A DNA stretch of 64,000 bases from an uncultured bacterium. Its GTDB lineage: Bacteria; Patescibacteriota; Minisyncoccia; UBA6257; 2-01-FULL-56-20. The position numbers were made by a program, and so were the translations under genes. The notes under the pieces are model-generated. The model saw only the letters and a program-made list of their open reading frames with translations, did no database searches and had not been told where the DNA came from. How positions within the stretch are numbered: the stretch's first letter is position 1; each line of letters starts with the position of its first letter. Positions 9,302 through 53,316 of the stretch are shown piece by piece. The stretch is from positions 507,590 to 571,589 of the forward strand of contig CAWDZM010000001.1 in NCBI GenBank assembly GCA_963807165.1, written 5' to 3'.

Positions 9302-12300
9302 CTAAACCTTCCGTATCGCCACCCAAACACTCTCCCCTTCTAGTTTGGTTATTTCCTCTGCAATAAATTTTTCCGAACGGCCAAATTCTATCACCGTCGC
9401 GCCGATATCCGCCAAGAACGATTTCTCATTCCTATCAATCACTTGCATCGTTTTTTCCGGCAGCTCCATAAGCGCGACGATCTTATCCTTCGGCTCAAGC
9501 CCGGCCTTCTGACGAAGCTCTTGGAACATGCGCGCCACTTCGCGCACCAGGCCTTCCTCGCGCAAGGCGGGAGTGATGATCGTATCGAGCGCGGCTTCGC
9601 GATCAAGAGACTTATCGCATGCGATGTCTTTTACATTCACCTCGCTTTTTAATATCGCCATAAGACGCTCGTCGTGAAGCCAAGGATAATCATCGCGGAT
9701 TATTAATTTCGAAAGCGGTTGACGCACTTTTATCTTTGCCTCTGCACGAGCAGCAAGACCAAGACTCGCCAATTGACGAATTTCCGCCATCCCTTTCATA
9801 AGTATGATCCGTTCAGGTTCACTGAAGGTAAACTCTGTCTTCGGCCACGCCTCCAAGTGCACCGAACCGGCGCCATCGGCCGGAGCAAGCTCCAGATACA
9901 ATGCCTCCGCAAGGAGCGGCATGAACGGCGCGAGTACGCGGCTCGTCGTCAGAAGCGATGCCTGCATGGTCCGAAAAAATCCCACATCCTTTCGCTTGCG
10001 CGAACGGCGCAAGTACCACGTCGAAAGGTCATCCACATATCCCTGGATCGCGCGCGTGGCGCGAACGGTGTCATACGCATCGAGCGATCGCGTCACAATA
10101 TCCACGAGTTCTTCGGTTCGTGCCGTAATCCATTGATCGAGAATGTTCTTATCTCCAGCGGGAGTATTTTCACCCGCATCATACGCGCCACCACTCGCCA
10201 CCTCTCCTCGGTACGTCGCAAAATATTTATAGACATTCGTCAGCAACATTCCCACTTTGCGAGACACTCCCTCAACGCCCTTTTCAGAGAAGCTTAAATT
10301 ATCGGCCTGCATAACAACGGAATTCATAAGATAGAACCTGAGTGCATCTGCTCCATATTTATCGATGAGCAGTTTCGGATCGGGGAAATTTCCCTTCGAT
10401 TTACTCATCTTGGAGCCATCCTCGGCAAGGATCGTTCCTGTCGTCACTACATTCTCGAACGGCGCACGGCCGAACAAGATGTACGACACAACGTGAGACA
10501 GGTAAAACCACGCGCGCGTCTGTGCGATGTACTCCGCCACAAACTGCGCCGGAAAATGTTTTTTGAACTCATCCTTGTTCTCAAATGGGTAATGATACTC
10601 TGCGAACGGCATCGAACCCGCCTCAATCCACGAATCGAAGATCTCTGGCGTGCGGCGCATCACGCCGCCACACGTTGCACACGGGAATGTGATGTCGTCG
10701 ATGTACGGTCGGTGCAGGTCCGCCTCACCGCTATCGTTCCGTGGAATATGTTTTACGCCAAATTCAACCATCTCGGCAGGGCCAATAAACACGTTGTTAT
10801 TGTTCCATTTTTTATTTCCCGTTTCCTTTTCGCTCCACCCAAGCGCCGCCTGGGAAAGCATCCAAATTGTATCTTCATGGCTCACGATCAGAATATTTTT
10901 GCCATGATGTTTCGCTTCCATCTCGCGAAGAAAATCCCATCCACGCGTACGGACATCGCTCAGTGATTCGCTCTTTTCATCAACACGCCCGGTAAAACGA
11001 TTTTCCATCGGGAATAATATTCTATACTCCGCGAGAGGTTTGCCGGAAAAACTCCCGAGATTGATCTCCCTCAAACGCTCGTCGTAGTGGACGGATACCC
11101 CCAACTCCGCGGCAACGATCTCCGCAGATTCTTTTGTGCGCAAAAGATCGGACGCAAAGATCATATCGATCTTTTCCCCTTTTATTTTTTTTGCGGTATG
11201 CTCGACTTCTTTTTTACCCAGCGAGGTAAGCTTGCAATGCTGATCGCCAGAATCAATGATCCCGCGGGTAATATTCTCCGACTTCGCCATGGCGCATCGC
11301 AAAATAATTATTCTTCGAACCACCCGCCTTCTTTGAAAGCTCATCCATGCTTCCCACCGCCTCCACGCTTTCACAACCAGCGCACTTCCATACCGGCACC
11401 GGATTGCCCCAGTAGCGATTGCGTGAAATGTTCCAATCCGGTGCCGCCTCCACACTCTTCGCATACCGGCCATTCTTGAGATGCTCCGGGAACCAGTTGA
11501 TCTCCTTCTGGTTCGAATTGAGCAAGCCTTGCTTGATTTTTTGGATATTCACGAACCACGCCGGGAGTGCGTTATAGTAGAGCATCGTGCCGCAACGCCA
11601 GCAGTGTGGATAGGAATGGGTGATAGACTCTTTCCTGAAAAGTAATCTCTCCGGCGTGCGATTTTCCAGATCTTCGATCACTAGCTTGTCCGCCTTTTTG
11701 AAATATTGCCCGCGCAAAAATTCCGGCGCCTTGTCCGTGAAGATCCCCCGCTCGTCGAGTAGCGGGACGATCGGCAATCCATCGCGCACGCCGAGTGCGT
11801 AATCATCTTCGCCATGTACCGGCGCGATATGCACAATGCCCGTGCCATCCTCAGTATTCACAAAACTCGCACCATACACACGGTATGATTTTTCACTATC
11901 CATCGCCGCGACCTTATAAAGCGGCTCATATTGAATTCCTCTTAATTGGCTAACTGGATATTTATGTTTAGGAGGATCTTCAAAACCATATTCTTTTGCT
12001 CGATTAATAGCGAGAATAAATCCCTCACCAGCCCTTTCGTAAACTCCGTATTCTTCATCAAGATTTATGGCGAGAGCGACGTTACCAGGTAACGTCCACG
12101 GTGTGGTTGTCCACGCCAATAAGAATGTATTTTTGGGCAGGCCAAGCCCTTTCGTTTGCCCCTCAATGATTACCTTAAATTTTCCAATAGCCGACTCCTC
12201 CGTCACGTCTTTATAGCTGTTATCCATCGCGACCTCAAAGTTCGAAAGTGGCGTCTCGCAGCGCGGGCAGTACAATAACACTTTGCGACCTTCGTAGATG

Positions 12301-12845
12301 AGGTCTTTATCGAACATCTGCTTGAATCCCCACCACACGGATTCCATGAAGTCGGCGTCGAGTGTTTTGTACGAATCGTCAAAATCCACCCAGCGCGCGA
12401 TGCGGCGGATCGTCTGGCGCCATTCAGAAACGTAGGTGAACACCATGCTGCGGCACGTCTCGTTGAATTTCTTGATGCCAATCTCTTCGATCTGTTTTTT
12501 ACCGGAGATGCCAAGTTTGCGCTCCACAACCTCTTCAATCGGTAGCCCATGGCAGTCCCATCCCCACCGGCGGCGCACGAAGCGGCCGTTCATTGTCTGA
12601 TAACGCGGCACAACGTCCTTTATGGTAGACGCAAGCAAGTGCCCGTAGTGCGGAAGTCCCGTGGCGAACGGTGGACCATCATAAAAAGTGAACGGTTCGC
12701 CGTCGGCAGTCTGTGCCAAACTCTTTTCAAAAATTTTGCGTTCGTCCCAAAACGCCAGCACTTTTTCTTCCATCTCGGGAATATTGATCTCGCCCTCAAG
12801 AAAATGCGGCATGTGATGCGATTCCTGCGAAGTTTCCTTAGCCAT
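9302..12845 (-). CDS. ileS: isoleucine--tRNA ligase (type 2) with an inserted histidine-phosphatase domain; frame disrupted at ~11282
   Basis: ORF 11253..12914 has PHYGHLL (HIGH) and the editing-domain motif TTTPWTLPGN. ORF 9302..11473 has KMSKS, DLHRPYIDD, CATCGG and the anticodon-binding region. The two are in different frames and overlap at 11253-11473. The true start is the ATG at 12843-12845 (MAKETSQ...). Confidence 0.8.
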
Positions 12846-12938
12846 TCCTATTAAAATAGCAGGTTTTGGGGGATTTTCAAAGAAAAAAATCCCGCGGGGC
12901 ATAGTGCGCCACACGGGTGTTGTGCGAAACTTCAGCTA

Positions 12939-19780: not shown

Positions 19781-20299
19781 ATGCCTATGTGGTTACTCGT
19801 CGCCGGCGTGTTGATTCCCCAGGAGTTCGCTTCAAGCGCGATCGTTTTTATTATTGCCTTGCAGAACAATTTTCCCATCTGGGCGATCAACGTGATCTGG
19901 ATCTGCGTCACTTCGCTTGATATGTACGTTGGCTACATGCTCGGTAAGTTCACAAAAGAAAAATTCAACGACACGCGCTTCTTCCATTGGGTGGAGGGAT
20001 GGATAAAAAAGGGTGAGGCGCGCCTCGGCACCCATGGCGAAAAATTGTCGCTCGCACTGCTTGCCGTTATTAATTTTCCTTTCGTCAACACATTCATCGC
20101 CGCGTGGATCGGCCTTCCGTTCAATATGGCATTTCTGCTGACACTCGCGGGCAACTTTGTGTGGCTCCTCTTTTTATGGGGCACCGTCCTTGGATTATCC
20201 GCGTTCGTTTCGAACCCGGACATCATCATTCTTATCCTAATCGTCGCCGGCGTCCTCTCTCACTTCCTCTTTAAGTTCTCGAGGGCGAACAAAGGGTAA
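19781..20299 (+). CDS. hypothetical polytopic membrane protein
   Basis: 172 aa with 4-5 hydrophobic helices. Confidence 0.3.
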   Translation: MPMWLLVAGVLIPQEFASSAIVFIIALQNNFPIWAINVIWICVTSLDMYVGYMLGKFTKEKFNDTRFFHWVEGWIKKGEARLGTHGEKLSLALLAVINFPFVNTFIAAWIGLPFNMAFLLTLAGNFVWLLFLWGTVLGLSAFVSNPDIIILILIVAGVLSHFLFKFSRANKG

Positions 20300-21282
20300 A
20301 TCTCAAGCAAAGTGAGCAGTAGGCCGAGCGAGAGCGGGCCGAGCAATAATCCAATAGGGCCAAAGAATGATAGCCCGCCGAGCACAGCAAACAACATCAG
20401 CATCGGATGGATCTTTTTCTTGCCTCCTAAAAATCGCGGGCGAATATACGTCTCCATCGTGATGGCCATAAAGAACATCCACGCGGTGAGTCCGATCGTG
20501 CCAATAATATTCCCCGCAAGATAAAGCGAGATGATTCCCGGCACCACAATGAGAAGAACGCCGACGCCTGGAATAAATGAAGCCACCACCGTGACCGCGC
20601 CCCAAAGGATCGCGCTCGGCAATCCAAATATGAAAAATCCGATTCCGGTCAGCAGACCATACAATACACCCACCGCGAGCGATCCCCTGATCACCGAGCT
20701 AGCCCGCGAATAAAGCGACGAGAGCACTTCTTCCGCACGCGCAGCGGACAATGGTCCGCGCGCAATGAACGCCGCGCAAAGCTTGGAGCCATCCCTTAGG
20801 AAATAATAGAGTGCAAAGAATGAAAGGAAGAACGTTGCGATCACGCCGAGGACGCCGGAGAATATTGGCCCGAGATCACCGATCACAACCCCTAACAGTT
20901 GTTGGACGTATGAACTGAAGTCAATGTTGAATACCGGAAGAACTCGCGCAAGCTCCATGCGGAACCAATTGATCACCGGCTCACCGCTGCCGGAAGCAAG
21001 GTGGCCGTACAATCCCTGCGCTTCAATAAAGATCTGCAGGCCGAAAAAGACGAGCGGCAAGAGAATGATCACGATTGCGAGGAGAACGACCAACCCTGCG
21101 GCGGCGCTGTCATGCCCACCAAACCACTTCCGCAGTAGCGCATAGCACGGCTGAAAGAGCACCGCGAAGCTGACCCCCAATACGATAGCATTCAGCTCAG
21201 GCAGAAAGATGAACGCCATCAGCGCCGCCGCCAGAATAATGCCACCGATGAAAATTTGTGATTCGGAACGCGAGCGTACCAT
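20260..21282 (-). CDS. AI-2E family (UPF0118) transporter-like membrane protein
   Basis: 340 aa with ~8 TM helices. Length and topology fit the AI-2E/PerM family. Confidence 0.4.
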   Translation of the reverse strand: MVRSRSESQIFIGGIILAAALMAFIFLPELNAIVLGVSFAVLFQPCYALLRKWFGGHDSAAAGLVVLLAIVIILLPLVFFGLQIFIEAQGLYGHLASGSGEPVINWFRMELARVLPVFNIDFSSYVQQLLGVVIGDLGPIFSGVLGVIATFFLSFFALYYFLRDGSKLCAAFIARGPLSAARAEEVLSSLYSRASSVIRGSLAVGVLYGLLTGIGFFIFGLPSAILWGAVTVVASFIPGVGVLLIVVPGIISLYLAGNIIGTIGLTAWMFFMAITMETYIRPRFLGGKKKIHPMLMLFAVLGGLSFFGPIGLLLGPLSLGLLLTLLEIYPLFALENLKRK

Positions 21283-21323
21283 ATCCTTATTGTATCACGC
21301 CAATATAGAAATTCTGTTGAAAC

Positions 21324-21388
21324 AAAAACACCCACCCTCTTTTGATAGTTGATTCTTATCACTAGATCAAAAGAGGGTGGGTGTTTTT
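21324..21388. terminator. long perfect hairpin downstream of cspA (bidirectional terminator)
   Basis: aaaaacacccaccctcttttgat ... atcaaaagagggtgggtgttttt: ~20-bp perfect stem flanked by A and T runs. Confidence 0.6.
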
Positions 21389-21397
21389 GTTGTGGCG

Positions 21398-21598
21398 TTA
21401 TGCGCGGCTGACGTTCGTCGCGGCCGGGCCTTTCTCGCCTTCGCTGACCTCGAAAGTGACGACATCGCCAACCTTAAGATCATCAAATGCGACACCATTC
21501 AACTCCTTGGAGTGGAAGAAAAGGTCTTTCGCTTCGCCATCGCGTGCGATAAAACCAAATCCACGGTCCGTAAGGGTCTTGATAGTTCCTTGCATCAT
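21398..21598 (-). CDS. cspA: cold-shock protein (CspA family)
   Basis: MMQGTIKTLTDRGFGFIARDGEAKDLFFHSKEL, a canonical cold-shock domain with RNP1/RNP2 motifs. A ~145-nt 5' UTR lies upstream. Confidence 0.9.
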   Translation of the reverse strand: MMQGTIKTLTDRGFGFIARDGEAKDLFFHSKELNGVAFDDLKVGDVVTFEVSEGEKGPAATNVSRA

Positions 21599-22196: not shown

Positions 22197-23474
22197 ATGG
22201 CAAAGTTTGGAAAGAAGACCAAGAACCTCCTCAAGGTCGTCGGGCCGGGCTTGATCACCGGCGCGGCGGATGATGATCCGTCAGGCATCGCCACCTATAC
22301 CCAGACCGGCGCGCAGTTCGGATACGGCCAGCTTTGGACCGCGCTCTTCCTGCTCCCCTTTATGGTGGCGATCCAGGAGGCATGTGCACGCATCGGCGCG
22401 GTGACGGGCAAAGGCCTTGCGGCGGTCGCCAAGGAAAATTACAGCAAGAAAGTGTTGTACGCACTGCTGGCGCTCATCCTCATTGCAAACACGATCAACA
22501 TCGGCGCAGATCTTGGAGCGATGGGCGCGGCGGCGGCGCTCATCATTCCGGTCAACTTCACCCTACTCACGCTTTTCTTCACCGCGCTCATTTTGGTACT
22601 CGAAATTTTTGTATCGTATAAAAATTACGCAAGGATATTGAAATGGCTCGCGCTTGTGCTCATCTCTTATCCGCTCACCGTATTCCTCGTTCACGAGCCG
22701 TGGATGACGATCCTGCGCGCCACACTTTTGCCACACATTCAGTTCAGCTTTGCGTTCCTTTTTATTATCACCGGCGTCTTAGGCACGACAATCTCGCCAT
22801 ATATGTTTTTCTGGGAAGCGTCGGAAGAAGTGGAGGAGGAAAAAGAAAAACATTTAATAGTGGACGGCAAAGCAAAGCCCACAAAATCCTTCATGCGCCG
22901 CCTGCGGCTCGATAATTTTCTCGGCATGCTCTCGTCCGAGATCGCAACGTGGTGCATCATCATCGTCGCGGCGACGGTACTGAATGCGCACGGACTGACG
23001 AACGTCGCCACGACGGCGGACGCGGCAAAGGCGCTCGAGCCGCTCGTACGGAGCTTTCCCAACGCGGGCCTTATCGCGAAGTGGCTCTTCGCGATCGGCG
23101 TCATCGGGCTCGGCCTCCTCGCCGTGCCAGTACTCTCCGCATCCGCCTCATATGCGCTCTCGGAAACCCTCAGTTGGCGCGAAGGGCTCAATTTAAAATT
23201 AAAGCGTGCTCATGGATTCTACGCCATCATCACAATCGCAACGCTCATCGGGCTGATGATTAACTTCGTCGGCATCAACCCGATCAAGGCGCTCGTGTTC
23301 ACCGCCGTCTTCAACGGCGTAGCGGCGGTGCCGCTCATCTTTATCATCGCGCGCATGGCCGGAAGCAAGAAGATTATGGGTGAATATAAGAGCGGCTGGC
23401 TTTCTAACATTGTCGTCTGGGCAACGTTCGTGTTGATGGCCGCCGCGGCCATCGCGATGTTCGCGACGCTGTAG
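22197..23474 (+). CDS. mntH: Nramp-family divalent metal (Mn2+/Fe2+) transporter
   Basis: GPGLITGAADDDPSGIATYTQTGAQFGYGQLW is the Nramp consensus N-terminal motif; ~11 TM helices. Confidence 0.8.
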   Translation: MAKFGKKTKNLLKVVGPGLITGAADDDPSGIATYTQTGAQFGYGQLWTALFLLPFMVAIQEACARIGAVTGKGLAAVAKENYSKKVLYALLALILIANTINIGADLGAMGAAAALIIPVNFTLLTLFFTALILVLEIFVSYKNYARILKWLALVLISYPLTVFLVHEPWMTILRATLLPHIQFSFAFLFIITGVLGTTISPYMFFWEASEEVEEEKEKHLIVDGKAKPTKSFMRRLRLDNFLGMLSSEIATWCIIIVAATVLNAHGLTNVATTADAAKALEPLVRSFPNAGLIAKWLFAIGVIGLGLLAVPVLSASASYALSETLSWREGLNLKLKRAHGFYAIITIATLIGLMINFVGINPIKALVFTAVFNGVAAVPLIFIIARMAGSKKIMGEYKSGWLSNIVVWATFVLMAAAAIAMFATL

Positions 23475-39838: not shown

Positions 39839-40200
39839 TTCTCTAGATGTTAGCTATTTAATTAGTTCGACTGCATGCAACCAGTTTAGCACATGTGCTA
39901 TTAGTGTCAAGCTAATACTGTGGATTACCTCTGGATAACTACATTGAGCTTAAAATGAGCGTATTTACATACAAATTCTATTATCCTATAATTTATGTAC
40001 AACTAAATAGGGTTGCCTAAACTCATCAGCAATGGCGAGCATGGCACAAAAACCAGTGACGGCTAGAAAGCTCTCAATCAGAGCACCGTCACTGGTCATA
40101 TCTCGAAAGGGTTATGGGTCCTCACGGATCGCTGGTTGGGAGCTTTCTGATTTAAAAATCCCCAACCGGCCCCAAAGGTCGGTTTTAGTTTAAAGAAAAA

Positions 40201-47068: not shown

Positions 47069-47812
47069 ATGCAAAAATTCTTCGCATATTGCAGAACCAG
47101 CACAGAGAATCAACGCGAAGAAAAGACGATAGATCTACAAGTTGAAAACCTGACGCAGTATGCGAAGAAGAACGGCATCGAAATTACCGACTGGTTCAAG
47201 GACGATGGAGTAAGCGGCGGACTGGAACACCGACCGGAATTAATGCGGTTAATGAAAGGCTTGGAACAAGACAGCGAAGCGGAAGGGGTGTTGATCTACA
47301 AACTAGATCGCCTCGCTCGTGATCTTTACATCCAAGAGGGCTTGATCAGAGAGTTCTCGAAGCTTGGGAAACAAATCATCTCCACATTGGAGCCAGATCT
47401 TGATAGCAACGATCCATTCAGAAAAGCCTTCCGTCAGATGCTTGGGGTATTTGCTGAATTTGAAAAAGCGATGATCACCTTGCGGATGAAGAACGGCAGA
47501 GATAGTGCGGTTGCCAAAGGCGGATGGCATGGTGGAAGCATCCTCGGCTACAAGCATAAAGACGGCCACCTCATTATTGATCCAATAGAAGCAGAGGTAG
47601 TCAAACGAATATTTGACCTCCGAAAGAAAAAGAAAATAACACCAAAACAAATCGCAGAATTACTAAACAACGAAAATGTCCCAACAAAACGAAAGACCAC
47701 AAAGTGGCATAGTTACACAGTTAAAAAGATTCTTGGAAACGGTCTCTACCGAGGGAAGATCCGTTATAAAGGGAAAACCTATGATGGCAAGCATGAACCG
47801 ATCATCCAATAA
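47069..47812 (+). CDS. serine recombinase, truncated (resolvase catalytic plus partial recombinase domain)
   Basis: YCRTSTENQ (catalytic Ser) and LDRLARD motifs. It ends at ...GKHEPIIQ, before the zinc-ribbon and coiled-coil regions found in large serine recombinases. Confidence 0.65.
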   Translation: MQKFFAYCRTSTENQREEKTIDLQVENLTQYAKKNGIEITDWFKDDGVSGGLEHRPELMRLMKGLEQDSEAEGVLIYKLDRLARDLYIQEGLIREFSKLGKQIISTLEPDLDSNDPFRKAFRQMLGVFAEFEKAMITLRMKNGRDSAVAKGGWHGGSILGYKHKDGHLIIDPIEAEVVKRIFDLRKKKKITPKQIAELLNNENVPTKRKTTKWHSYTVKKILGNGLYRGKIRYKGKTYDGKHEPIIQ

Positions 47813-49269
47813 TCAATTTCTTGCTTATGTGCGGGTCAGTTCAAAAGACCAAAGCCGTGGCGCATCGCTTGATGAGCAAAGATCCCGCATTGAGGAATAC
47901 GCTCGCAGAAAAGAAATCTTCATCGTTAAATTCTACGGCGAAGTAGAGTCGGCATCAAAGACAGGCCGAGAAATATTTGACGATATGATAAAACGCCTAA
48001 AAAAAGAGCACCTCGGAGGAATTATCTTCCACAAGACCGACCGAAGCGCACGAAACCCAAGAGATCAAGCTCTCCTCTACGAACTCATGCAGGAGGGATA
48101 TGAACTTCATTTCGTTACCGAAGGGATCTCGACGAACGATCATTCCGGTAGGAACCTCATTTACATCATGTGGGGTCTCGCCAGTGGATATAGCGAGAAT
48201 CTTAAAAATGAGATTAATAAGGGAGTTATTGGACGACTCAAACAAGGCAAGTGGCCACTTCAATCCCCTGTCGGCTATATGAGAACTGGCAACATTAAAG
48301 ATTGCATAAAAGGGATTGATCCGATCAAAGGCCCACTCATTAAGAAACTCTTTGAGGAGTACGCAACTGGAAGGTACTCGGTTCAAGAGCTTGGCCCTCT
48401 CTCTAAAAAAATCGGACTGACCAATAACAATGGTGGCTCTCTCGGTAGAGATTCTCTCCATAACATCCTTCGCAATCCGTTTTATTACGGCCTCCTAAAA
48501 CACAAATACGGCACCTTTCCGGCAGAGCATGAGCCTCTTTTTTCCAAGACGCTGTTCGATAAGGTGCAGTATGTTCTTAAAGAAAAAGGGTTCAAAAAGA
48601 GCCGGGAATTTGGGTACAGCTTTAAAGGCCTCCTGAAATGCCAAATATGTGCCCGACGGATGAAGGCAACCACTGCCAAAGGGAAGTATCACTACTACCA
48701 CTGCCGTGATTGGAATTGCGGAGTAAAAACGGTAGCAGAAATAAAACTGGAAGCTGATTTCATCGAAGCATTAAAAGGGTTGGAGTTTTCGGACGAAGAA
48801 GCGCATATGTTTAAACTGGCGATCAACGCCTTTCGTGGCACAGTACAAAAAACACAGACCGATATGGCTACCTCCCATACGCTTGAAATCAAAAGCATCA
48901 AAGCGAGGTTAGAAGGCCTGTTCCAGAAAATATATGGAGCAAAAGGTGGATGATGAAACCTACAACAAAGCCCGAACTCAGCTGTTAAATCGGGAAATAG
49001 ACCTCAAAGAACAAATCGCCGTATTAGAAAAAACAGACGGCAACGCATTCAACGAGATGGATGAATTGGTCAAACTCCTGAAAAATCCGGCGCAGGCATA
49101 CGAAAAAGCCGATCCAGTGAATAAGCGACGATTGCTGATTTCTATGGTGGCAAACTTAACACTACACGATAAAACGCTAGTAGTTACTTGGAAAAAACAC
49201 TTTGAGGTGGTCGCAAATCGACCAAAATTAAATTCAAGTGGAAGCGGGCGGAATCGAACCGCCGTGTAA
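47781..49269 (+). CDS. large serine recombinase, C-terminal coiled-coil in the +1 frame (frameshift near 48936)
   Basis: MMASMNRSSNNQFLAYVRVSSKDQ (catalytic Ser), recombinase domain, and zinc ribbon CQICARRM...HYYHCRDWNCG. Frame 0 stops at 48953, but the coiled-coil continuation YMEQKVDDETYNKARTQLLNREIDLKEQIAVLEK... reads on in ORF 48934..49269. Confidence 0.6.
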
Positions 49270-49542
49270 AGATAATGCCGATGGGCCGTCTACGAGTGTA
49301 GTTTAGCTAGGCTAAGCGAAGTGATCATATTTTCGCGCCGGGCGTATGATCGTCAACCTGACGCTAGTCTCCTTATATAAGACCGGTATCAATCCAAGAG
49401 ACCCGGACTGGCCGATCCCGCACGGTTACGCGAAAGCGAAAGCGCGCGGAGCTGCAACGTTAGAGTTGGCAGTTATAGGTTGTGCAGCGATAACGACGCT
49501 GCCAACGACTCGCAAACCCACGGATTATCTTTATCGAAGCCA
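49239..49542 (-). ncRNA. ssrA: tmRNA (ssrA)
   Basis: Minus-strand RNA: 5' GGGAGCG pairs with 3' CGCUUCC-A, giving a G3-U70 wobble (Ala identity element). T-arm GGCGG-UUCGAUU-CCGCC. 5' region GGGAGCGCAUUGGCUUCGAUA resembles tmRNA 5' ends. Candidate tag ORF ...GCC AAC UCU AAC GUU GCA GCU CCG CGC GCU UUC GCU UUC GCG UAA (ANSNVAAPRAFAFA). ~304 nt, CCA not encoded. Confidence 0.55.
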
Positions 49543-49688
49543 ATGCGCTCCCCCATGCATACTTGCATGTTTAGTAGCCTTCGATAAGGCTGCCGCTATT
49601 ATACCATACGCAGTGCTATAATTAAAGGGTACAAAAAACGCAGCCAAAGGTCGAAGACTGAAACGATAACCAGAATTTAATCTCTACT

Positions 49689-49898
49689 ATGGAAGAAGGA
49701 AACATGCAGGGCAAAGGCATGGTGTGTAAGTGCCCTCATCACAAAGCATTGCCGGTGATCCTCGTTCTTATCGGCCTCGACTTCCTTTTGGGAGCCCTTG
49801 GCGTTTTAACGATGATGTTCGTCAGCATCACCTGGCCAATTCTTTTAATCATCCTCGGATGCATGAAGATGGTGCGCTGCGGCTGCTGTTCCAAATAG
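49689..49898 (+). CDS. hypothetical small Cys-rich membrane protein
   Basis: 69 aa with CKCPHH, one TM helix and a CGCCSK tail. Confidence 0.3.
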   Translation: MEEGNMQGKGMVCKCPHHKALPVILVLIGLDFLLGALGVLTMMFVSITWPILLIILGCMKMVRCGCCSK

Positions 49899-49903
49899 AA
49901 ATA

Positions 49904-49975
49904 AAAATATCCCGTGGCCCTCTCGTTCCGACGTAAGCACGTCCACTCACTCGAGGGCAGCGGGATATTTTTATT
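49904..49975. terminator. bidirectional terminator hairpin with a conserved 25-nt loop, copy 1
   Basis: Stem aaaaatatcccgtggccctcg / cgagggcagcgggatattttt encloses ttccgacgtaagcacgtccactcac at 49926-49950. The loop is identical to the one at 52176-52200. Confidence 0.5.
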
Positions 49976-49993
49976 TCTATTTCGCACAGCTAC

Positions 49994-50572
49994 TTACTTT
50001 TCTTCGGTGACCTTTTGGACGTTCGCCCTCTTTAATAATTCTGCTTGCATCCATTCGGCGAGGTCTTTGTCGAGCGCGGGAAGGATTCCTTCGGTGTCAT
50101 CGTCGCCGGGCTTTTCATCTTCTTCATGGCCGGCGGTAATGATGACGATGCGGCTCAATCCCATCATCTGGAATGAAAGATCGCGCTTGATATCCACGTC
50201 CTGGATCTGCCGATAGGGAATCGCCACCTCCTCTTTATTTAAAATGCCACGCTTTATTTTTAATGAATCATCGCCGAGGCAGAATTTGAACGTCGTATAA
50301 ACAAGCCACGCGCTGAGTATAGTGATCGCGAGCACGAAGACGAAGAGTCCAAGGCCGATCCACGCCGCGAGCATCACATAGCTGACAATATTTGCAACGG
50401 GCACCGTCGCGAGAAACGCCTGCTGGCTCACGATGAACAGCACGATAGTGAGCAAAAGCAAAATGAAGGCCGCATGCACGCGTTGAAGGAAAAATATCCA
50501 AAACGTCTTCTTCCCCATCGTGTGATAGACCTCTTCGGGAACGCCGGGATGGGTGATCGGATTTTCGTCCAT
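49994..50572 (-). CDS. membrane protein with a bacterial PH (bPH_2/YdbT-like) domain
   Basis: Two TM helices, then KIKRGILNKEEVAIPYRQIQDVDIKRDL...GLSRIVIITAG, the bPH_2 pattern. Confidence 0.45.
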   Translation of the reverse strand: MDENPITHPGVPEEVYHTMGKKTFWIFFLQRVHAAFILLLLTIVLFIVSQQAFLATVPVANIVSYVMLAAWIGLGLFVFVLAITILSAWLVYTTFKFCLGDDSLKIKRGILNKEEVAIPYRQIQDVDIKRDLSFQMMGLSRIVIITAGHEEDEKPGDDDTEGILPALDKDLAEWMQAELLKRANVQKVTEEK

Positions 50573-50622
50573 GGTTTTTAGGGTGGTTTTGATTATTCTA
50601 CCACAGCTGATATAATGGAGGC

Positions 50623-51129
50623 ATAATCAAGCCCCGCATCAACAATCAAATAACCGCACCGGAGCTCCGCGTCATCGGCGAGGCCGGAGAAAATCTTGGC
50701 GTCATGTCGCGCGAAGCGGCGCTTAAACTCGCCCGCCCGGACGATGGCATCGACCTTATCGAGATATCCGGCTCGGCAAAGCCGCCTGTCGTGCGTTTAA
50801 TGAGCTATGACAAGTTCCGCTACGAGGAAGAAAAGCGGGTCAAAAAGGAACGCGCTGCGCAAAAAACCGCCGCGATGAAGTCCGTGCAGATCAGCGCCAA
50901 GGCCGCACACAATGATCTGATGGTAAAGGTAAAGCAGGTGGAAAAGTTTTTTGCGCAAGGCCATCCGGTGGAAGTGAATATGCGCCTGCGTGGCCGCGAG
51001 AAGCGCAACAAGGACTGGGCAATGGAAAAGCTTAAGGAATTTTTAACATTACTGCCCGTGGAATATAAGAAGCTCAGCGAGCCAAAGTTTTTGGGCAACG
51101 GCCCGGCGGTGCAGATCGCGAAGAAATAA
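50623..51129 (+). CDS. infC: translation initiation factor IF-3, non-AUG start
   Basis: The ORF from ATG 50704 holds the IF-3 C-domain. In-frame upstream codons give IIKPRINNQITAPELRVIGEAGENLGVM, the IF-3 N-domain, with no ATG; GGAGG at 50617-50621 then ATA/ATC. Confidence 0.75.
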   Translation: MIKPRINNQITAPELRVIGEAGENLGVMSREAALKLARPDDGIDLIEISGSAKPPVVRLMSYDKFRYEEEKRVKKERAAQKTAAMKSVQISAKAAHNDLMVKVKQVEKFFAQGHPVEVNMRLRGREKRNKDWAMEKLKEFLTLLPVEYKKLSEPKFLGNGPAVQIAKK

Positions 51130-51138
51130 AATAACAAA

Positions 51139-51549
51139 ATGAACGAGAACCCCGAAAAGAATAAAGAAGAGTTCAGCGAGGAACAACAGGAAGTGATCAA
51201 TGAGTGGATGGCAAAGTATGCCACAGAAGAAATCCCTGCGGAAAAGCGCCGGGAAGGAGGGCCGGAGATCATTGAACTCGAGAGAATGCTTGAAGATTTT
51301 GAGCAAACCCACGATCTCGCGGCGCTACTCACTATTACCAATCTTACATTTGAGGAATCATTACTTCATCCCACCCGAAAGCCTGCACAGCTTGCGCTTA
51401 ACCCTATCTATGCAAAACTGCGCACCCTCAAAGAAGAAACAAATATTACCGATGAGCAATATAAAGAATTGGAAGTAAAAAGGGATCGTTTATCACAAGC
51501 TGTCGGAATGCTCAGGAGCGACAATACCGTTGATCACTCGGAAAGATAG
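51139..51549 (+). CDS. hypothetical acidic protein inserted between infC and rpmI
   Basis: 136-aa Glu-rich ORF occupying the usually tight infC-rpmI junction. Confidence 0.35.
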   Translation: MNENPEKNKEEFSEEQQEVINEWMAKYATEEIPAEKRREGGPEIIELERMLEDFEQTHDLAALLTITNLTFEESLLHPTRKPAQLALNPIYAKLRTLKEETNITDEQYKELEVKRDRLSQAVGMLRSDNTVDHSER

Positions 51550-51620
51550 CCAACTATTGCCAATCCAGCGAACCTATAGTAAGCTTACTGTCATTGAGCA
51601 ACTAGGCTCATTTTACTGAA

Positions 51621-51791
51621 ATGCCTTCCAAGAGCGTAACTAAGAGAATAAAGATCACGAAGAACGGGAAGATCGTTCGCCGCCGCACGGGGGTGAGCCA
51701 TTTTAAGACGCGTAAAAGCAGCAAAATGAACCGTGATTCCCGCAAGAGCCGCTCTCTCAACATGTCGCTCAAGACAATTTTGAACAACTAA
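51621..51791 (+). CDS. rpmI: 50S ribosomal protein L35
   Basis: MPSKSVTKRIKITKNGKIVRRRTGVSHFKTRKSSKMNRDSRKSRSLNMSLKTILNN (56 aa, below the ORF-track cutoff). Sits in the conserved position before rplT. Confidence 0.8.
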   Translation: MPSKSVTKRIKITKNGKIVRRRTGVSHFKTRKSSKMNRDSRKSRSLNMSLKTILNN

Positions 51792-51807
51792 TTTCTGATC
51801 CACTACC

Positions 51808-52155
51808 ATGCCACGCGTAAAACGAGGAGTAAATGCTCACCAGCACCGCGAGAAGCTTCTTAAGAGCACAAAGGGTTTTCGGTGGGGTCGCAAATCAAAA
51901 GAGCGCGCCGCAAAGGAGGCTTTGCTCCATGCCCTCTCCCGCGCATTCCGCGGACGTAAAGAAAAGAAGCGCACCTTCCGCCAGCTCTGGACCGTCAAGA
52001 TCAACGCCGCCATCCGCCCCGAAGGGATGAACTACAGCACATTCATCGCGGCGCTCAAGAAAGAAAGCATCAAGATCGACCGCAAGATTCTCGCAGACCT
52101 CGCAGAGAACGAGCCGGAAGTGTTCAAGAAGGTGGTTGCCGCGGTGAAGAAATAA
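51808..52155 (+). CDS. rplT: 50S ribosomal protein L20
   Basis: MPRVKRGVNAHQHREKLLKSTKGFRWGRK... matches the canonical L20 sequence. Confidence 0.9.
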   Translation: MPRVKRGVNAHQHREKLLKSTKGFRWGRKSKERAAKEALLHALSRAFRGRKEKKRTFRQLWTVKINAAIRPEGMNYSTFIAALKKESIKIDRKILADLAENEPEVFKKVVAAVKK

Positions 52156-52225
52156 AAAATACCCCTCCTGTTTCGTTCCGACGTAAGCACGTCCACTCAC
52201 GAAACAGGAGGGGTATTTTTTATTT
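52154..52225. terminator. bidirectional terminator hairpin with a conserved 25-nt loop, copy 2
   Basis: Stem aaaaaatacccctcctgtttcg / gaaacaggaggggtatttttt encloses ttccgacgtaagcacgtccactcac at 52176-52200. Confidence 0.5.
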
Positions 52226-52768
52226 TGCGTCCTTAGCGGTGGGTTCCTTTGCGACTGCGTGTGGCGTGGCAACGGTAGGCTTCGCTGGGATGCGCTTATG
52301 CGGCTTCAGATAATCGCTCGCCTGCTTCAACACCTTTCGCGTATCGCCATATTTTTTGCCGATCACGTTCAGCGCGTCATGGTAGAGGAACCAGCCATAG
52401 CCGCTATGTTCGCGCGGTTCAATGCGGATGTCAGCCTTATGCGTCTCGGCCAAAAATAAAATGACGGTGTCGTAGATTCCCTGGTTGCCAATCTTAAAAT
52501 AGAAACGTTCGTATGCGCGGAAATTCGGCAACATGCGCAGCTCACTCTTTTTTATCCCTGTCTCCTCTTCCAGCTCGCGAAGCGCAACATCGATTGTACG
52601 TTCGCCCGGCTTGAAGTGACCCTTCGGAAAATTCCAATAATTGCCGCGGCGATAGAGCAATAGGAATTTTATCCCATCGCTCGTCTTGCGATAGACCACA
52701 AAGCCCGCCACGACCTGTTTTTTGGTCGGGATACGCTTTGATTCATCCAATTCACGGGTTGACGGCAT
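52220..52768 (-). CDS. NUDIX hydrolase
   Basis: GHFKPGERTIDVALRELEEETGIK is the Nudix box (GX5EX7REUXEEXGU). Confidence 0.75.
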   Translation of the reverse strand: MPSTRELDESKRIPTKKQVVAGFVVYRKTSDGIKFLLLYRRGNYWNFPKGHFKPGERTIDVALRELEEETGIKKSELRMLPNFRAYERFYFKIGNQGIYDTVILFLAETHKADIRIEPREHSGYGWFLYHDALNVIGKKYGDTRKVLKQASDYLKPHKRIPAKPTVATPHAVAKEPTAKDAK

Positions 52769-52833: not shown

Positions 52834-53316
52834 ATGTCTCTTTTAGATTATATTTTTGCAATGATAGATTGGTGCAAAATTGCCATTCAGTTACAGATAA
52901 AACCCCGACACATCTTTTTTAAAGAAGGGGAAATTTGGTGGTGTAGCGTCGGGATAAATGTCGGCGTGGAGATATTTGGGAAAAACGCAGATTTTGCGCG
53001 CCCCGTCATTATATTTAAAAAATTTAATGATAATTCTTTTCTAGGAATCCCGTTAACCACCCAACCAAAACAGGGAGTTTGGCACGTTTCATTTATGCAC
53101 GCCGATAAGAAACAATATGCAAATTTCTCTCAAATAAGAACCTTCGACAGCGGCCGCCTGATTAATAAAGTCGGTGTTTTAAGCGACGGCAACTTTCAAG
53201 AGATGCAAAATCGATTTGTAAAATTATATACCCCAGAAAATACTCACCCCACAGCGCCTTCAGAAAAAAGCGATGCGGGGTGCGGTGGGGAATCCCAAAA
53301 ATCTGCCTCTTTATAA
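52834..53316 (+). CDS. MazF/PemK-family toxin-like protein (no adjacent antitoxin seen)
   Basis: GEIWWCSVGINVGVEIFGKNADFARPVIIF...PLTTQPKQ...QIRTFDSGRL matches the MazF/PemK pattern. It has a ~50-aa C-terminal extension. Confidence 0.45.
   Translation: MSLLDYIFAMIDWCKIAIQLQIKPRHIFFKEGEIWWCSVGINVGVEIFGKNADFARPVIIFKKFNDNSFLGIPLTTQPKQGVWHVSFMHADKKQYANFSQIRTFDSGRLINKVGVLSDGNFQEMQNRFVKLYTPENTHPTAPSEKSDAGCGGESQKSASL

What the first reader, a model, noticed from the sequence alone, without database searches (positions are those of the whole stretch)
49904..52225. Two terminator hairpins carrying an identical 25-nt loop with different, compensatory stems
At 49904-49975 and 52154-52225, convergent-gene junctions contain long hairpins whose loops are the identical 25-mer TTCCGACGTAAGCACGTCCACTCAC. 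The loop itself contains the mini-hairpin GACGU-AAGC-ACGUC. The closing stems differ completely (aaaaatatcccgtggccctcg versus aaaaaatacccctcctgtttcg) but are each self-complementary. Conserved loop plus co-varying stems is the signature of a selected RNA structure or a protein-binding motif. This looks like a repeated small structured element embedded in bidirectional terminators, not two unrelated terminators.
Basis: seen in the sequence. Interest (0 to 1): 0.5.

Follow-up and report, generated by a model that had tools for sequence, protein, structure and literature searches.

The report
Conserved structured cap on terminator hairpins
Two transcription-terminator hairpins in this small-genome (CPR/Paceibacteria) bacterium carry the same 28-nt folded tip. 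That tip is one of several conserved, interchangeable "caps" found on most terminators of this clade, and it matches no RNA or repeat family in the libraries and papers searched.

Summary

It is not a coincidence or a local duplication. The same cap (F1: 2-bp closing helix, UCC/CACUC internal loop, 5-bp mini-helix, ARGN tetraloop) occurs in 15 distinct hairpins from 10 related Paceibacteria lineages. The closing pair and the mini-helix show compensatory changes.

At one orthologous site the cap is 88% identical across species, while third codon positions of the adjacent gene are 53% identical.

F1 is one of about five cap families (F1, F2, F3, F5, F6). They swap and flip at orthologous terminators. 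They cap 34 of the 39 clear A/T-tract hairpins in the clade loci sampled.

Nothing reaches threshold in Rfam. Phage, plasmid and viral collections and the papers searched gave nothing.

Best reading: a clade-specific modular terminator cap, kept by selection on its folded single-stranded form and copied between terminators by short-tract conversion. The molecular role is inferred, not shown. Most likely it is an RNA 3'-end folding or recognition module. A self-propagating palindromic repeat is the main rival.

The parts
49893..49982 (.). Hairpin 1: long bidirectional intrinsic-terminator-like hairpin (A-run, stem, cap, stem, T-run) between the LiaF-TM-like gene and the bPH_2 gene
   Evidence: Arms up to 38 nt at 89% complementarity; MFE -45.5 kcal/mol, z = -9.6. 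Orthologous hairpins in L082/L083, L089, L100, L106, L002, L003, L005 and L045.
49923..49952 (+). F1 cap, copy 1 (TCGTTCC-GACGT-AAGC-ACGTC-CACTCACTC): UC/UC 2x2 internal loop, G-C and U-A closing pairs, UCC/CACUC internal loop, 5-bp mini-helix 49930-49934/49939-49943, tetraloop 49935-49938
   Evidence: Structure supported by the 14-sequence alignment A3. CM R1 hit at 49913-49962, 68.9 bits.
52149..52226 (.). Hairpin 2: long bidirectional terminator-like hairpin between rplT (end of the infC-rpmI-rplT operon) and the NUDIX gene
   Evidence: 27-28-bp stem at 100% complementarity; MFE -47.2 kcal/mol, z = -11.3. The ortholog in L083 (8761-8834) has a similar stem and the same cap.
52173..52202 (+). 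F1 cap, copy 2 (TCGTTCC-GACGT-AAGC-ACGTC-CACTCACGA): same 28 nt as copy 1, but the flanking TC pairs with GA so the stem runs on without the internal loop; mini-helix 52180-52184/52189-52193, tetraloop 52185-52188
   Evidence: CM R1 hit at 52163-52212, 72.5 bits.
21315..21397 (-). Third capped terminator hairpin in the window (32-bp stem). Its cap belongs to family F2 and reads CUAGUG-AU-AAGA-AU-CAACU on the minus strand. It follows the cold-shock gene (21398-21598, -) and precedes the AI-2E transporter gene (20260-21282, -).
   Evidence: Same cap family as L082/L083, L002, L084, L095 and L103.
49689..49898 (+). LiaF-TM-like small membrane protein gene; its stop codon lies in the 5' arm of hairpin 1
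49994..50572 (-). bPH_2 (bacterial PH domain) membrane protein gene, convergent with the LiaF-TM-like gene; used as the anchor to fetch orthologous loci
51808..52155 (+). rplT (ribosomal protein L20); its stop codon lies in the 5' arm of hairpin 2
52220..52768 (-). NUDIX hydrolase gene, convergent with rplT; its stop codon overlaps the 3' arm of hairpin 2

Best explanation
SHOWN. The 25-mer is the core of a conserved 30-nt apical domain (cap F1) on unusually long (19-37 bp, about 96% Watson-Crick) bidirectional intrinsic-terminator hairpins of one clade of Paceibacteria (CPR).

From outside to inside, the folded cap has a UC/UC internal loop (paired in some copies), a 2-bp closing helix, a 3x5 internal loop (UCC / CACUC), and a 5-bp mini-helix with an A-R-G-N tetraloop.

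The unpaired bases are nearly invariant, and the paired positions change only in compensated ways. At one orthologous site the cap is as conserved as first and second codon positions, while synonymous sites are near saturation.

F1 is one of about five cap families (F1, F2, F3, F5, F6). They replace one another and flip orientation at orthologous terminators. Together they cap most clear terminators in the clade loci sampled.

INFERRED.
- The caps are selected in their folded single-stranded form.
- They are copied from one terminator to another, cap alone or whole hairpin, often between neighbours 1-2 kb apart. The mechanism would be short-tract gene conversion or template switching that uses the shared outer arms and caps as homology.
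- This would explain why the two window copies are identical over 28 nt although the stem middles differ.

Most likely role. On the transcript, the pre-folded mini-hairpin with its conserved single-stranded flanks gives a very long stem a defined, quickly nucleating tip. That tip may also be a recognition surface for a 3'-end factor (nuclease protection, or control of processing of the long duplex). At convergent genes one of the two transcripts always carries the sense cap.
For: - Exact repeat and folds.
- Terminator context at gene 3' ends.
- Family membership: 15 distinct hairpins in 10 lineages, and every match lies at a hairpin tip. CM R1 found 21 hits of 63-75 bits in 758 kb, all in the closest relatives.
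- Structure: RNAalifold predicts the same fold on its own. Closing pair CG 10 / UA 3 / UG 1; mini-helix pairs AU 11 / GC 3 and GC 11 / AU 1 / GU 1. 0 of 500 shuffles reach the observed covariation, and slid controls collapse.
- Constraint: cap identity 0.88 against codon position 3 identity 0.53 and positions 1+2 identity 0.88 in the adjacent gene (36 species pairs). Window versus L083: 1.00 against 0.62.
- Other cap families with their own compensated mini-helices: F2 with AU/AU, CG/CG, CU/AG and UU/AA around AAGA; F6 with CACGU/ACGUG versus CAGUG/CACUG around AGGA.
- Swapping of families at the same site within a clade of 85-91% protein identity.
- Flipped loop between near-identical orthologous stems, L084 13546 versus L088 11325.
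- Whole-hairpin transfer: the stem of L100 2166 matches the site-1 stem of L002.
- 34 of 39 clear A/T-tract hairpins in clade loci have loops of 12 nt or more.
- At site 1 the ARGN-sense strand is the LiaF-TM strand in 12 of 13 species, across F1/F2 replacements.
Against: - No expression, 3'-end or binding data exist, so RNA-level action is inference.
- Orientation is not fixed. In one-directional (tandem) contexts about 4-6 caps are sense and 2 antisense to the transcript (L100 7748 and L100 2166). At the rplT and tmRNA sites orientation differs between species. That is awkward for a strictly strand-specific RNA signal.
- Several unrelated-looking cap families are hard to assign to one recognition factor.
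- Compensated changes in palindromes can also arise from DNA-level template switching without selection on RNA.
- Stem mismatches show no G.U-over-A.C strand bias.
- Sampling is limited to about 20 kb around one locus per species, so genome-wide copy numbers are unknown.
Confidence: 0.45

Rival explanations
1. Self-propagating palindromic repeat (REP-like or MITE-like in behaviour). The cap, alone or with the inner stem, is the recognition element of a mobilising enzyme (for example a hairpin-specific HUH/Y1 nuclease). It spreads into the single-stranded tips of existing terminator hairpins. Its conservation reflects selection for mobility and constant re-seeding, not host function.
For: - Several families coexist in one genome: L088 has F1, F2, F3, F5 and F6 within 20 kb.
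- Copy number differs strongly between close relatives: 3 in the 64-kb window against 7 in 20 kb of L088.
- Families swap, and caps are present or absent, at orthologous junctions.
- Identical copies within a genome share the cap plus the inner stem, while the outer stems differ more (L084 has three copies, L088 two).
- A junction irregularity lies next to the inner element in L088 10600.
- One degenerate copy exists, L100 2166.
Against: - The conservation pattern is the reverse of REP, REPIN and MITE elements, where arms are conserved and the loop is free.
- No target-site duplication. The apparent TCGCTC direct repeat behaves as a base pair: C-G to U-G to U-A.
- No GTAG-type motif.
- No Y1, HUH or other candidate transposase was called next to any hairpin in about 250 kb of annotated loci.
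- The orthologous site-1 copy has been retained and conserved across species whose synonymous sites are near saturation.
- Orientation at site 1 is kept in 12 of 13 species.
Confidence: 0.28
2. DNA-level site. The cap is a binding or cleavage site for a protein acting on double-stranded or extruded (cruciform or lagging-strand hairpin) DNA, for example a nucleoid, replication or recombination factor. It sits in terminator loops because these compact genomes have almost no other free intergenic space.
For: - Orientation independence and flipping fit a DNA site.
- The F1 and F6 cores are dyad-symmetric, GACGT-N4-ACGTC, with about one helical turn between half-site centres.
- Stems are almost perfectly Watson-Crick, as expected if the arms are corrected against each other at the DNA level.
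- Intergenic gaps are filled completely by the hairpins, and stop codons lie inside the arms.
Against: - Symmetric double changes in both half-sites of closely related species are unlikely for a protein operator, and natural for base pairing.
- F2 caps have only a 2-bp dyad.
- Five different families would need several proteins in a genome of about 0.7-0.9 Mb.
- No similarity to parS, dif or attC core sequences beyond short chance words (own comparison from memory, not a database test).
Confidence: 0.12
3. Neutral passenger. Large loops are tolerated, or mildly favoured because a central spacer stabilises long palindromes. The shared sequences merely reflect frequent gene conversion among terminators, with no selection on cap sequence.
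For: Gene-conversion-like transfers and flips are documented. Any structured spacer seems acceptable at a given site, since F1, F2, F3 or none occur at the rplT site.
Against: - Unpaired cap bases (UCC, CACUC) are nearly invariant in 14 hairpins.
- Changes in helices are compensated.
- The same few cap sequences persist across lineages with near-saturated synonymous divergence. Conversion alone homogenises within a genome; it does not hold sequence constant between species.
Confidence: 0.1
4. Coincidence, assembly artefact or a simple recent segmental duplication of one terminator.
For: Only two copies in the 64-kb window, 2.25 kb apart. The exact 23-mer core is absent from 185,579 GTDB species representatives.
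Against: - 0 matches expected by chance.
- The flanks and stem middles differ, so it is not a duplicated segment.
- Both copies are present in an independent assembly of a 99.8% identical strain.
- The family is present in independent NCBI, ENA, JGI and Logan assemblies of 10 lineages.
- The zero hit has a simple cause: the query included a window-lineage-specific base (CACTCA instead of CACTCG).
Confidence: 0.02

Closest known systems
Bidirectional Rho-independent (intrinsic) terminators at convergent genes
   Same: - An A-run, a G+C-rich stem and a T-run that read the same on both strands.
- Placement exactly at gene 3' ends.
- Stop codons at the hairpin foot.
   Different: - Ordinary terminators have 5-14-bp stems and 3-8-nt loops of free sequence.
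- Here stems are 19-37 bp.
- The tip is a conserved, internally structured 16-30-nt module shared between unrelated terminators and between species.
REP / BIME / REPIN elements with RAYT transposases (own knowledge of Enterobacteria and Pseudomonas)
   Same: - Small palindromic intergenic repeats, mostly at 3' ends of genes and between convergent genes.
- Several families per genome.
- Transcribed as part of mRNA 3' ends, where they can stabilise the upstream message.
- Patchy presence or absence between relatives.
   Different: - In REP and REPIN elements the conserved part is the stem, with a 5' GTAG-like motif, and the loop is free. Here the tip is conserved and the middle of the stem is free.
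- No RAYT-like gene was seen in the sampled loci.
- Caps occur only at hairpin tips.
DNA uptake sequences (Neisseria DUS, Pasteurellaceae USS) forming terminators (own knowledge)
   Same: - A short conserved motif embedded in terminator hairpins of a compact genome.
- Lineage-specific variants ('dialects').
- CPR bacteria are thought to depend on DNA uptake.
   Different: - DUS and USS are one motif at about one copy per kb, and inverted pairs of the motif form the stem.
- Here there are at least five unrelated motifs, each at low copy number, present once per hairpin, in the loop, with internal base pairing that covaries.
3'-end hairpins read by a protein through their tip: histone mRNA stem-loop/SLBP, and yeast RNase III (Rnt1p) AGNN/AAGU tetraloop hairpins (own knowledge; analogy only)
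   Same: - A conserved tip and flanking bases on a 3'-terminal hairpin, with a stem sequence that is otherwise free.
- The tetraloops here are AAGC, AAGA, AGGA and AAGG.
   Different: - Those are eukaryotic systems, and no homologous reader is known in bacteria.
- Here the tetraloop sits on a 2-5-bp mini-helix separated from the long stem by an internal loop.
- Orientation relative to the transcript is not fixed.

Membership tests
Intrinsic (Rho-independent) terminator, bidirectional type | G+C-rich hairpin followed directly by a U-run, mirrored by an A-run so that both strands read as terminators | tested here: met
   AAATAAAAA(T)A + stem ... stem + T(A)TTTTTATTT at both sites; both strands fold at -45 to -48 kcal/mol.
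Intrinsic (Rho-independent) terminator, bidirectional type | Location just downstream of stop codons, here of two convergent genes | tested here: met
   stops at 49896-49898 / 49994-49996 and at 52153-52155 / 52220-52222. Same context in relatives.
Intrinsic (Rho-independent) terminator, bidirectional type | Transcripts actually end at the U-run | not testable with these tools
   No transcriptome or 3'-end data available.
REP / REPIN (RAYT-associated repeats) | The palindrome arms are the conserved repeated sequence; a conserved 5' tetranucleotide (GTAG-like) is present | tested here: not met
   Alignment A3. Stem columns 2-8 vary freely, while the cap is invariant or compensated. No GTAG-like motif.
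REP / REPIN (RAYT-associated repeats) | A cognate RAYT (Y1 transposase) gene in the genome | tested here: inconclusive
   No Y1_Tnp hit among the genes called in the fetched loci, but only about 20 kb per genome was seen.
MITE | Conserved terminal inverted repeats and a target-site duplication | tested here: not met
   The hairpin ends are generic A/T runs. The candidate 6-nt direct repeat TCGCTC...TCGCTC changes as a base pair (CG 10, UG 1, UA 3), not as a duplicated target.
DNA uptake sequence (DUS/USS) | A single short motif at very high genomic density, often as inverted pairs forming the stem | tested here: not met
   At least five different motifs, each with 1-3 copies per 20 kb, single copy in the loop. 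Whole-genome density not measured.
Any Rfam 15 family | Score at or above the family's gathering threshold | tested here: not met
   Only sub-threshold matches to eukaryotic pre-miRNA models (generic long hairpins), for example mir-942 at 41 bits against a threshold of 100.
New family F1 (defined here) | Fold of 2-bp closing helix, UCC / CACUC internal loop, 5-bp mini-helix and ARGN tetraloop at the tip of a terminator hairpin; CM R1 score above 60 bits | tested here: met
   Window hits of 68.9 and 72.5 bits. Pair counts.

The most novel reading that the evidence does not exclude
A clade of CPR bacteria builds most of its terminators from a small kit of interchangeable, structured caps that a dedicated but still unknown reader recognises on folded RNA or single-stranded DNA. 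That would be either a new kind of bacterial 3'-end signal system or a new kind of mobile 'terminator cassette' that copies itself from hairpin tip to hairpin tip.
Probability: 0.3. Interest if true: 0.75.

Novelty: new variant of a known kind. Interest (0 to 1): 0.6.

Why it matters
Terminator loops are usually treated as free sequence. Here a lineage with a very small genome keeps its terminator tips as conserved as protein-coding positions. It also reuses a handful of tip modules across most terminators sampled.

If the caps act on RNA, they point to an undescribed 3'-end recognition or stability mechanism in uncultured CPR bacteria, for which almost no RNA biology is known.

If they are selfish, they are a repeat type with the inverse architecture of REP and MITE elements (conserved tip, free stem).

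In both cases they give cheap, testable markers:
- covariance models for annotating terminators and operon ends in CPR genomes;
- natural series of flipped and swapped caps for testing what a terminator tip does.

Tried and rejected
1. The exact 23-mer scan of GTDB species representatives gave 0 hits. This was misleading. The query carried a lineage-specific base, and the family is present in GTDB genomes L002, L003, L005 and L045.

2. Viral contigs (exact and degenerate pattern), phage records and plasmid records: nothing meaningful.

3. Target-site-duplication idea. TCGCTC flanks the core on both sides. Rejected because the two variable positions change as a base pair, with a U-G intermediate in L089.

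4. I first took window hairpin 21315-21397 for the tmRNA terminator displaced by the island (note). This was wrong. ORF 22197-23474 is Nramp, and the hairpin follows the cold-shock gene (corrected).

5. Strand rule: 'the ARGN-sense cap is always on the transcribed strand in one-directional contexts'. It looked good at 6 of 6, then L100 gave two antisense cases. It is not a strict rule.

6. G.U versus A.C mismatch bias as an RNA-strand test: no bias, and my hairpin finder is biased against A.C.

7. Complementarity of the caps to tmRNA or to anything else in the window: only 6-11-nt chance words.

8. Resemblances recalled from memory and not supported on inspection:
- kink-turn (the GA pairs of the antisense strand have the wrong polarity);
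- parS half-sites;
- DnaA box;
- pC194-type nick site (F2 antisense TTCTTCTTA);
- CsrA GGA loops (only some copies have GGA);
- lambda boxB;
- L20 autoregulatory mimic (the cap is not in the infC leader, and the link to rplT comes partly from sampling around rplT).

9. Literature searches found no description.
Full report
**1. The observation**

The 25-mer TTCCGACGTAAGCACGTCCACTCAC is present exactly twice in the window, at 49926-49950 and 52176-52200 (+). There is no third copy even with three mismatches, and none is expected by chance. Reading the sequence shows the identity is 28 nt long: TCG plus the 25-mer, 49923-49950 = 52173-52200. The bases on either side differ.

Each copy is the tip of a long inverted repeat. 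Hairpin 1 has 38-nt arms at 89% complementarity; hairpin 2 has 27-nt arms at 100%. As RNA they fold at -45.5 and -47.2 kcal/mol (z = -9.6 and -11.3). The complementary strands fold just as well, and all four folds contain the inner GACGU-AAGC-ACGUC hairpin.

Each hairpin starts with an A-run and ends with a T-run, so each reads as an intrinsic terminator on both strands. Each fills the gap between two convergent genes:
- LiaF-TM-like (+) / bPH_2 (-) for hairpin 1;
- rplT, the last gene of infC-rpmI-rplT (+) / NUDIX (-) for hairpin 2.

The two stems share their outer part (A-run, ATA, CCC) and differ only in the middle. Hairpin 1 has a G.A mismatch, a U.G pair and a UC/UC internal loop.

**2. 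The organism**

The L20 protein finds its nearest relatives (up to 91% identity) only in metagenome-assembled genomes of Paceibacteria/Minisyncoccia, that is, Patescibacteria or CPR bacteria. Complete chromosomes there are 0.83-0.90 Mb. A 99.8%-identical strain from an independent ENA assembly has both hairpins with the same tip, with one unpaired 1-nt deletion in an arm. This excludes an assembly artefact.

**3. Is it conserved?**

Yes. My first test, an exact 23-mer scan of one genome per GTDB species, found nothing. That query contained a base specific to this lineage.

A JGI metagenome contig, L082, is 80.7% identical to the window over tmRNA, LiaF-TM and bPH_2. It carries the orthologous hairpin 1 with an identical tip and changed but still paired stem positions.

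A hairpin scan of the loci fetched around rplT and around bPH_2 orthologues found more. Together with a covariance model built from 14 copies, it identified 15 distinct hairpins with this tip in 10 lineages: window, L082/83, L002, L003, L005, L045, L088, L089, L100 and L106. Every match lies at the tip of a terminator-like hairpin. The model gives 63-75 bits for these hairpins and nothing comparable elsewhere in 758 kb.

**4. Anatomy of the cap (family F1)**

The copies align without gaps. The consensus is TC-GC-UCC-GACGU-AAGC-ACGUC-CACUC-GC-UC.

RNAalifold predicts, on its own, the outer stem, a 2-bp closing helix and the 5-bp mini-helix. Pair counts:
- The inner closing pair is C-G in 10 copies, U-A in 3 (both window copies and L082) and U-G in 1 (L089, the expected intermediate).
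- The mini-helix's second pair is A-U in 11 copies and G-C in 3.
- Its first pair is G-C in 11, A-U in 1, G-U in 1 and A.C in 1.
- None of 500 column shuffles reaches the observed covariation, and sliding the partners by 1-3 columns destroys the pairing.

The unpaired bases UCC and CACUC are invariant except for one C in L088. The tetraloop is always A-R-G-N.

The flanking UC/UC is unpaired in 11 of 14 copies and Watson-Crick paired in three, including window copy 2. This is why the window's two copies stop being identical exactly there.

The apparent 6-nt direct repeat (TCGCTC ... TCGCTC) is therefore not a target-site duplication. Its variable positions behave as a base pair.

**5. Strength of constraint**

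At the orthologous LiaF-TM/bPH_2 junction, nine species carry F1. Over 36 species pairs:

| Sequence compared | Mean identity |
|---|---|
| 30-nt cap | 0.88 |
| bPH_2 codon positions 1+2 | 0.88 |
| bPH_2 codon position 3 | 0.53 |

The cap is therefore held constant over a time in which synonymous sites have approached saturation. The cause is either selection in place or repeated replacement from conserved copies.

**6. F1 is one member of a kit**

The same hairpin scans show other recurring tips on equally long terminator hairpins.

- **F2:** UCGUG-NN-AAGA-NN-AAUUC and relatives such as UAGAU-AU-AAGA-AU-AAC. The 2-bp helix occurs as AU/AU, CG/CG, CU/AG and UU/AA. The window's third long hairpin, 21315-21397, just after the cold-shock gene, carries an F2 cap.
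- **F3:** UCC-N3-4-ARAUGR-N2-3-GUUC.
- **F5:** GGGCUCACCC-UUCG-GGAUU.
- **F6:** AAAUGY-CACGU-AGGA-ACGUG-AC. One copy has CAGUG/CACUG instead, so three of its five pairs are changed and compensated.

In the clade's loci, 34 of 39 clear A/T-tract hairpins have loops of 12 nt or more. Their stems are 96% Watson-Crick (991 WC and 39 G.U pairs). Capped terminators are thus the norm in the loci sampled. The window itself is cap-poor, with three in 64 kb.

**7. Dynamics**

Caps are exchanged at orthologous junctions:

| Junction | Caps seen |
|---|---|
| LiaF-TM/bPH_2 | F1 in nine species; F2 in four (L084, L088, L095, L103) |
| rplT/NUDIX | F1 (window, L083, L088); F2 (L084, L002); F3 (L005, L089); plain short loops (L003, L004, L006, L010, L103, L106) |
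| After the cold-shock gene | F2 (window, L084); F6 (L083, L088, L100) |
| tmRNA terminator | F2 (L082/83, L084, L088); F1 (L045) |

On a bPH_2 tree the F2 species at the LiaF-TM/bPH_2 junction are interleaved with F1 species inside a group of 85-91% protein identity. Several switches must therefore have occurred there.

Caps also flip. The tmRNA-terminator hairpins of L084 and L088 have almost identical 36-bp arms but the 16-nt loop in opposite orientation.

Whole hairpins can move too. L100 carries, just downstream of infC, a slightly degenerate F1 hairpin. Its stem (CCATCATTGTC) is that of the LiaF-TM/bPH_2 hairpin of its close relative L002.

The two window copies share the U-A closing pair. 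L083, the closest other lineage, has U-A at the first site but C-G at the rplT site. This fits conversion of one window copy by the other, 2.25 kb away.

**8. What it most likely is and does**

Shown:
- a conserved, folded apical domain of bidirectional terminators;
- a family repeated within and between genomes;
- modular exchange and inversion.

Inferred:
- Selection acts on the folded single-stranded form. Pairs are compensated and unpaired bases are fixed.
- Spread occurs by short-tract conversion or template switching between terminators that share outer arms and caps. No transposase, terminal repeat or duplication was seen.

I judge an RNA-level role most likely, because the hairpins are transcript 3' ends by position. 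A 19-37-bp stem would need a defined, quickly folding tip, and may need a mark that controls nuclease access. At the LiaF-TM/bPH_2 junction the ARGN-sense strand is the LiaF-TM strand in 12 of 13 species, even across F1/F2 replacements.

Against a strictly strand-specific signal:
- orientation varies at other sites;
- two caps in one-directional contexts are antisense to the transcript (L100);
- stem mismatches show no G.U bias.

I put the composite explanation at 0.45. The main rival, a self-propagating palindromic repeat with conserved tip and free stem, gets 0.28. A DNA-level protein site gets 0.12, a neutral passenger of gene conversion 0.10, and coincidence, artefact or duplication 0.02.

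**9. Comparison with what is known**

The hairpins meet the sequence definition of bidirectional intrinsic terminators. Actual termination could not be tested.

They fail the defining features of:
- REP/REPIN elements (conserved arms, GTAG motif);
- MITEs (terminal repeats, duplication);
- uptake sequences (one motif at very high density, in the stem).

No Rfam 15 family reaches threshold at any capped hairpin. Only generic sub-threshold matches to eukaryotic pre-miRNA models appear. Viral contigs, phage and plasmid records contain nothing similar. Six full-text searches found no description of conserved terminator tips in CPR bacteria or elsewhere.

I therefore class it as a new variant of a known kind: terminator-associated small palindromic repeats. 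It could yet prove to be a new signal system.

**10. Limits**

- All comparative loci lie within about 10 kb of rplT or bPH_2, so genome-wide numbers are unknown.
- Species are metagenome bins.
- Gene contexts outside the annotated loci rest on my crude ORF calls.
- Compensated changes in palindromes can arise from DNA-level arm correction as well as from selection.
- No expression data exist.

Noticed in passing
window about 23475-49237: A roughly 25.7-kb low-G+C segment (0.39-0.45 against about 0.52 outside) lies between the Nramp stop (23474) and the 3' end of the tmRNA gene (49238-49552, minus strand). A large serine recombinase gene (47676-48953) sits next to the tmRNA. A 99.8%-identical strain (L001/L099) and an 81%-identical relative (L082) match the window only from 49238 rightwards. 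L099 carries a different recombinase-bearing insert there. This looks like an integrated element at the tmRNA 3' end. The capped tmRNA terminator hairpin of relatives is missing in the window.
   Followed up: partly
window 40014-40130 (+): Rfam LOOT RNA (RF03000) match at 84.7 bits (threshold 46.4), inside the putative integrated element. The one paper checked gave no functional information.
   Followed up: no
window 21315-21397: Third long capped terminator hairpin (32-bp stem, F2-type cap), right after a 66-aa cold-shock protein gene (21398-21598, minus) and before the AI-2E transporter gene. The same junction carries an F6 cap in L083, L088 and L100 and a flipped F2 cap in L084.
   Followed up: yes
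window 9302-12914 (-): A class I aminoacyl-tRNA synthetase appears split over two overlapping ORFs. ORF 11253-12914 matches tRNA-synt_1 positions 2-266. ORF 9302-11473 starts with a histidine-phosphatase domain (His_Phos_1), then continues with tRNA-synt_1 positions 267-413 and the anticodon-binding domain. Possible domain insertion, frameshift or split gene.
   Followed up: no
window 50704-51129 (+): The infC ORF from its first ATG lacks the first about 22 positions of the IF3_N profile. One relative's gene call is 168 aa instead of 141 (L106). The gene probably starts upstream at a non-ATG codon, as is usual for infC.
   Followed up: no
L084 11295-13546; L083 15205-16573; L103 15790-17191; L095 12258-14093: In L084 about 2.2 kb of genes separates the tmRNA 3' end from a capped hairpin that still begins with TCCACC, suggesting another insertion at the tmRNA end. 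Relatives carry bAvd + reverse-transcriptase pairs, as in diversity-generating retroelements, near the same region. L095 has a 519-aa reverse transcriptase next to a HARE-HTH gene.
   Followed up: no
window 52834-53316 (+): A PemK/MazF-like toxin ORF lies between the NUDIX and PolX genes in the window and its near-identical strain. Relatives have an unrelated 138-154-aa ORF, or nothing, at that place.
   Followed up: no
L021 705-780 and 2703-2780: A more distant Paceibacterota genome has two long hairpins sharing a different loop sequence (CATTCTTCAAGTTTAATG) in opposite orientations. Shared terminator tips may therefore exist outside the F1 clade.
   Followed up: no
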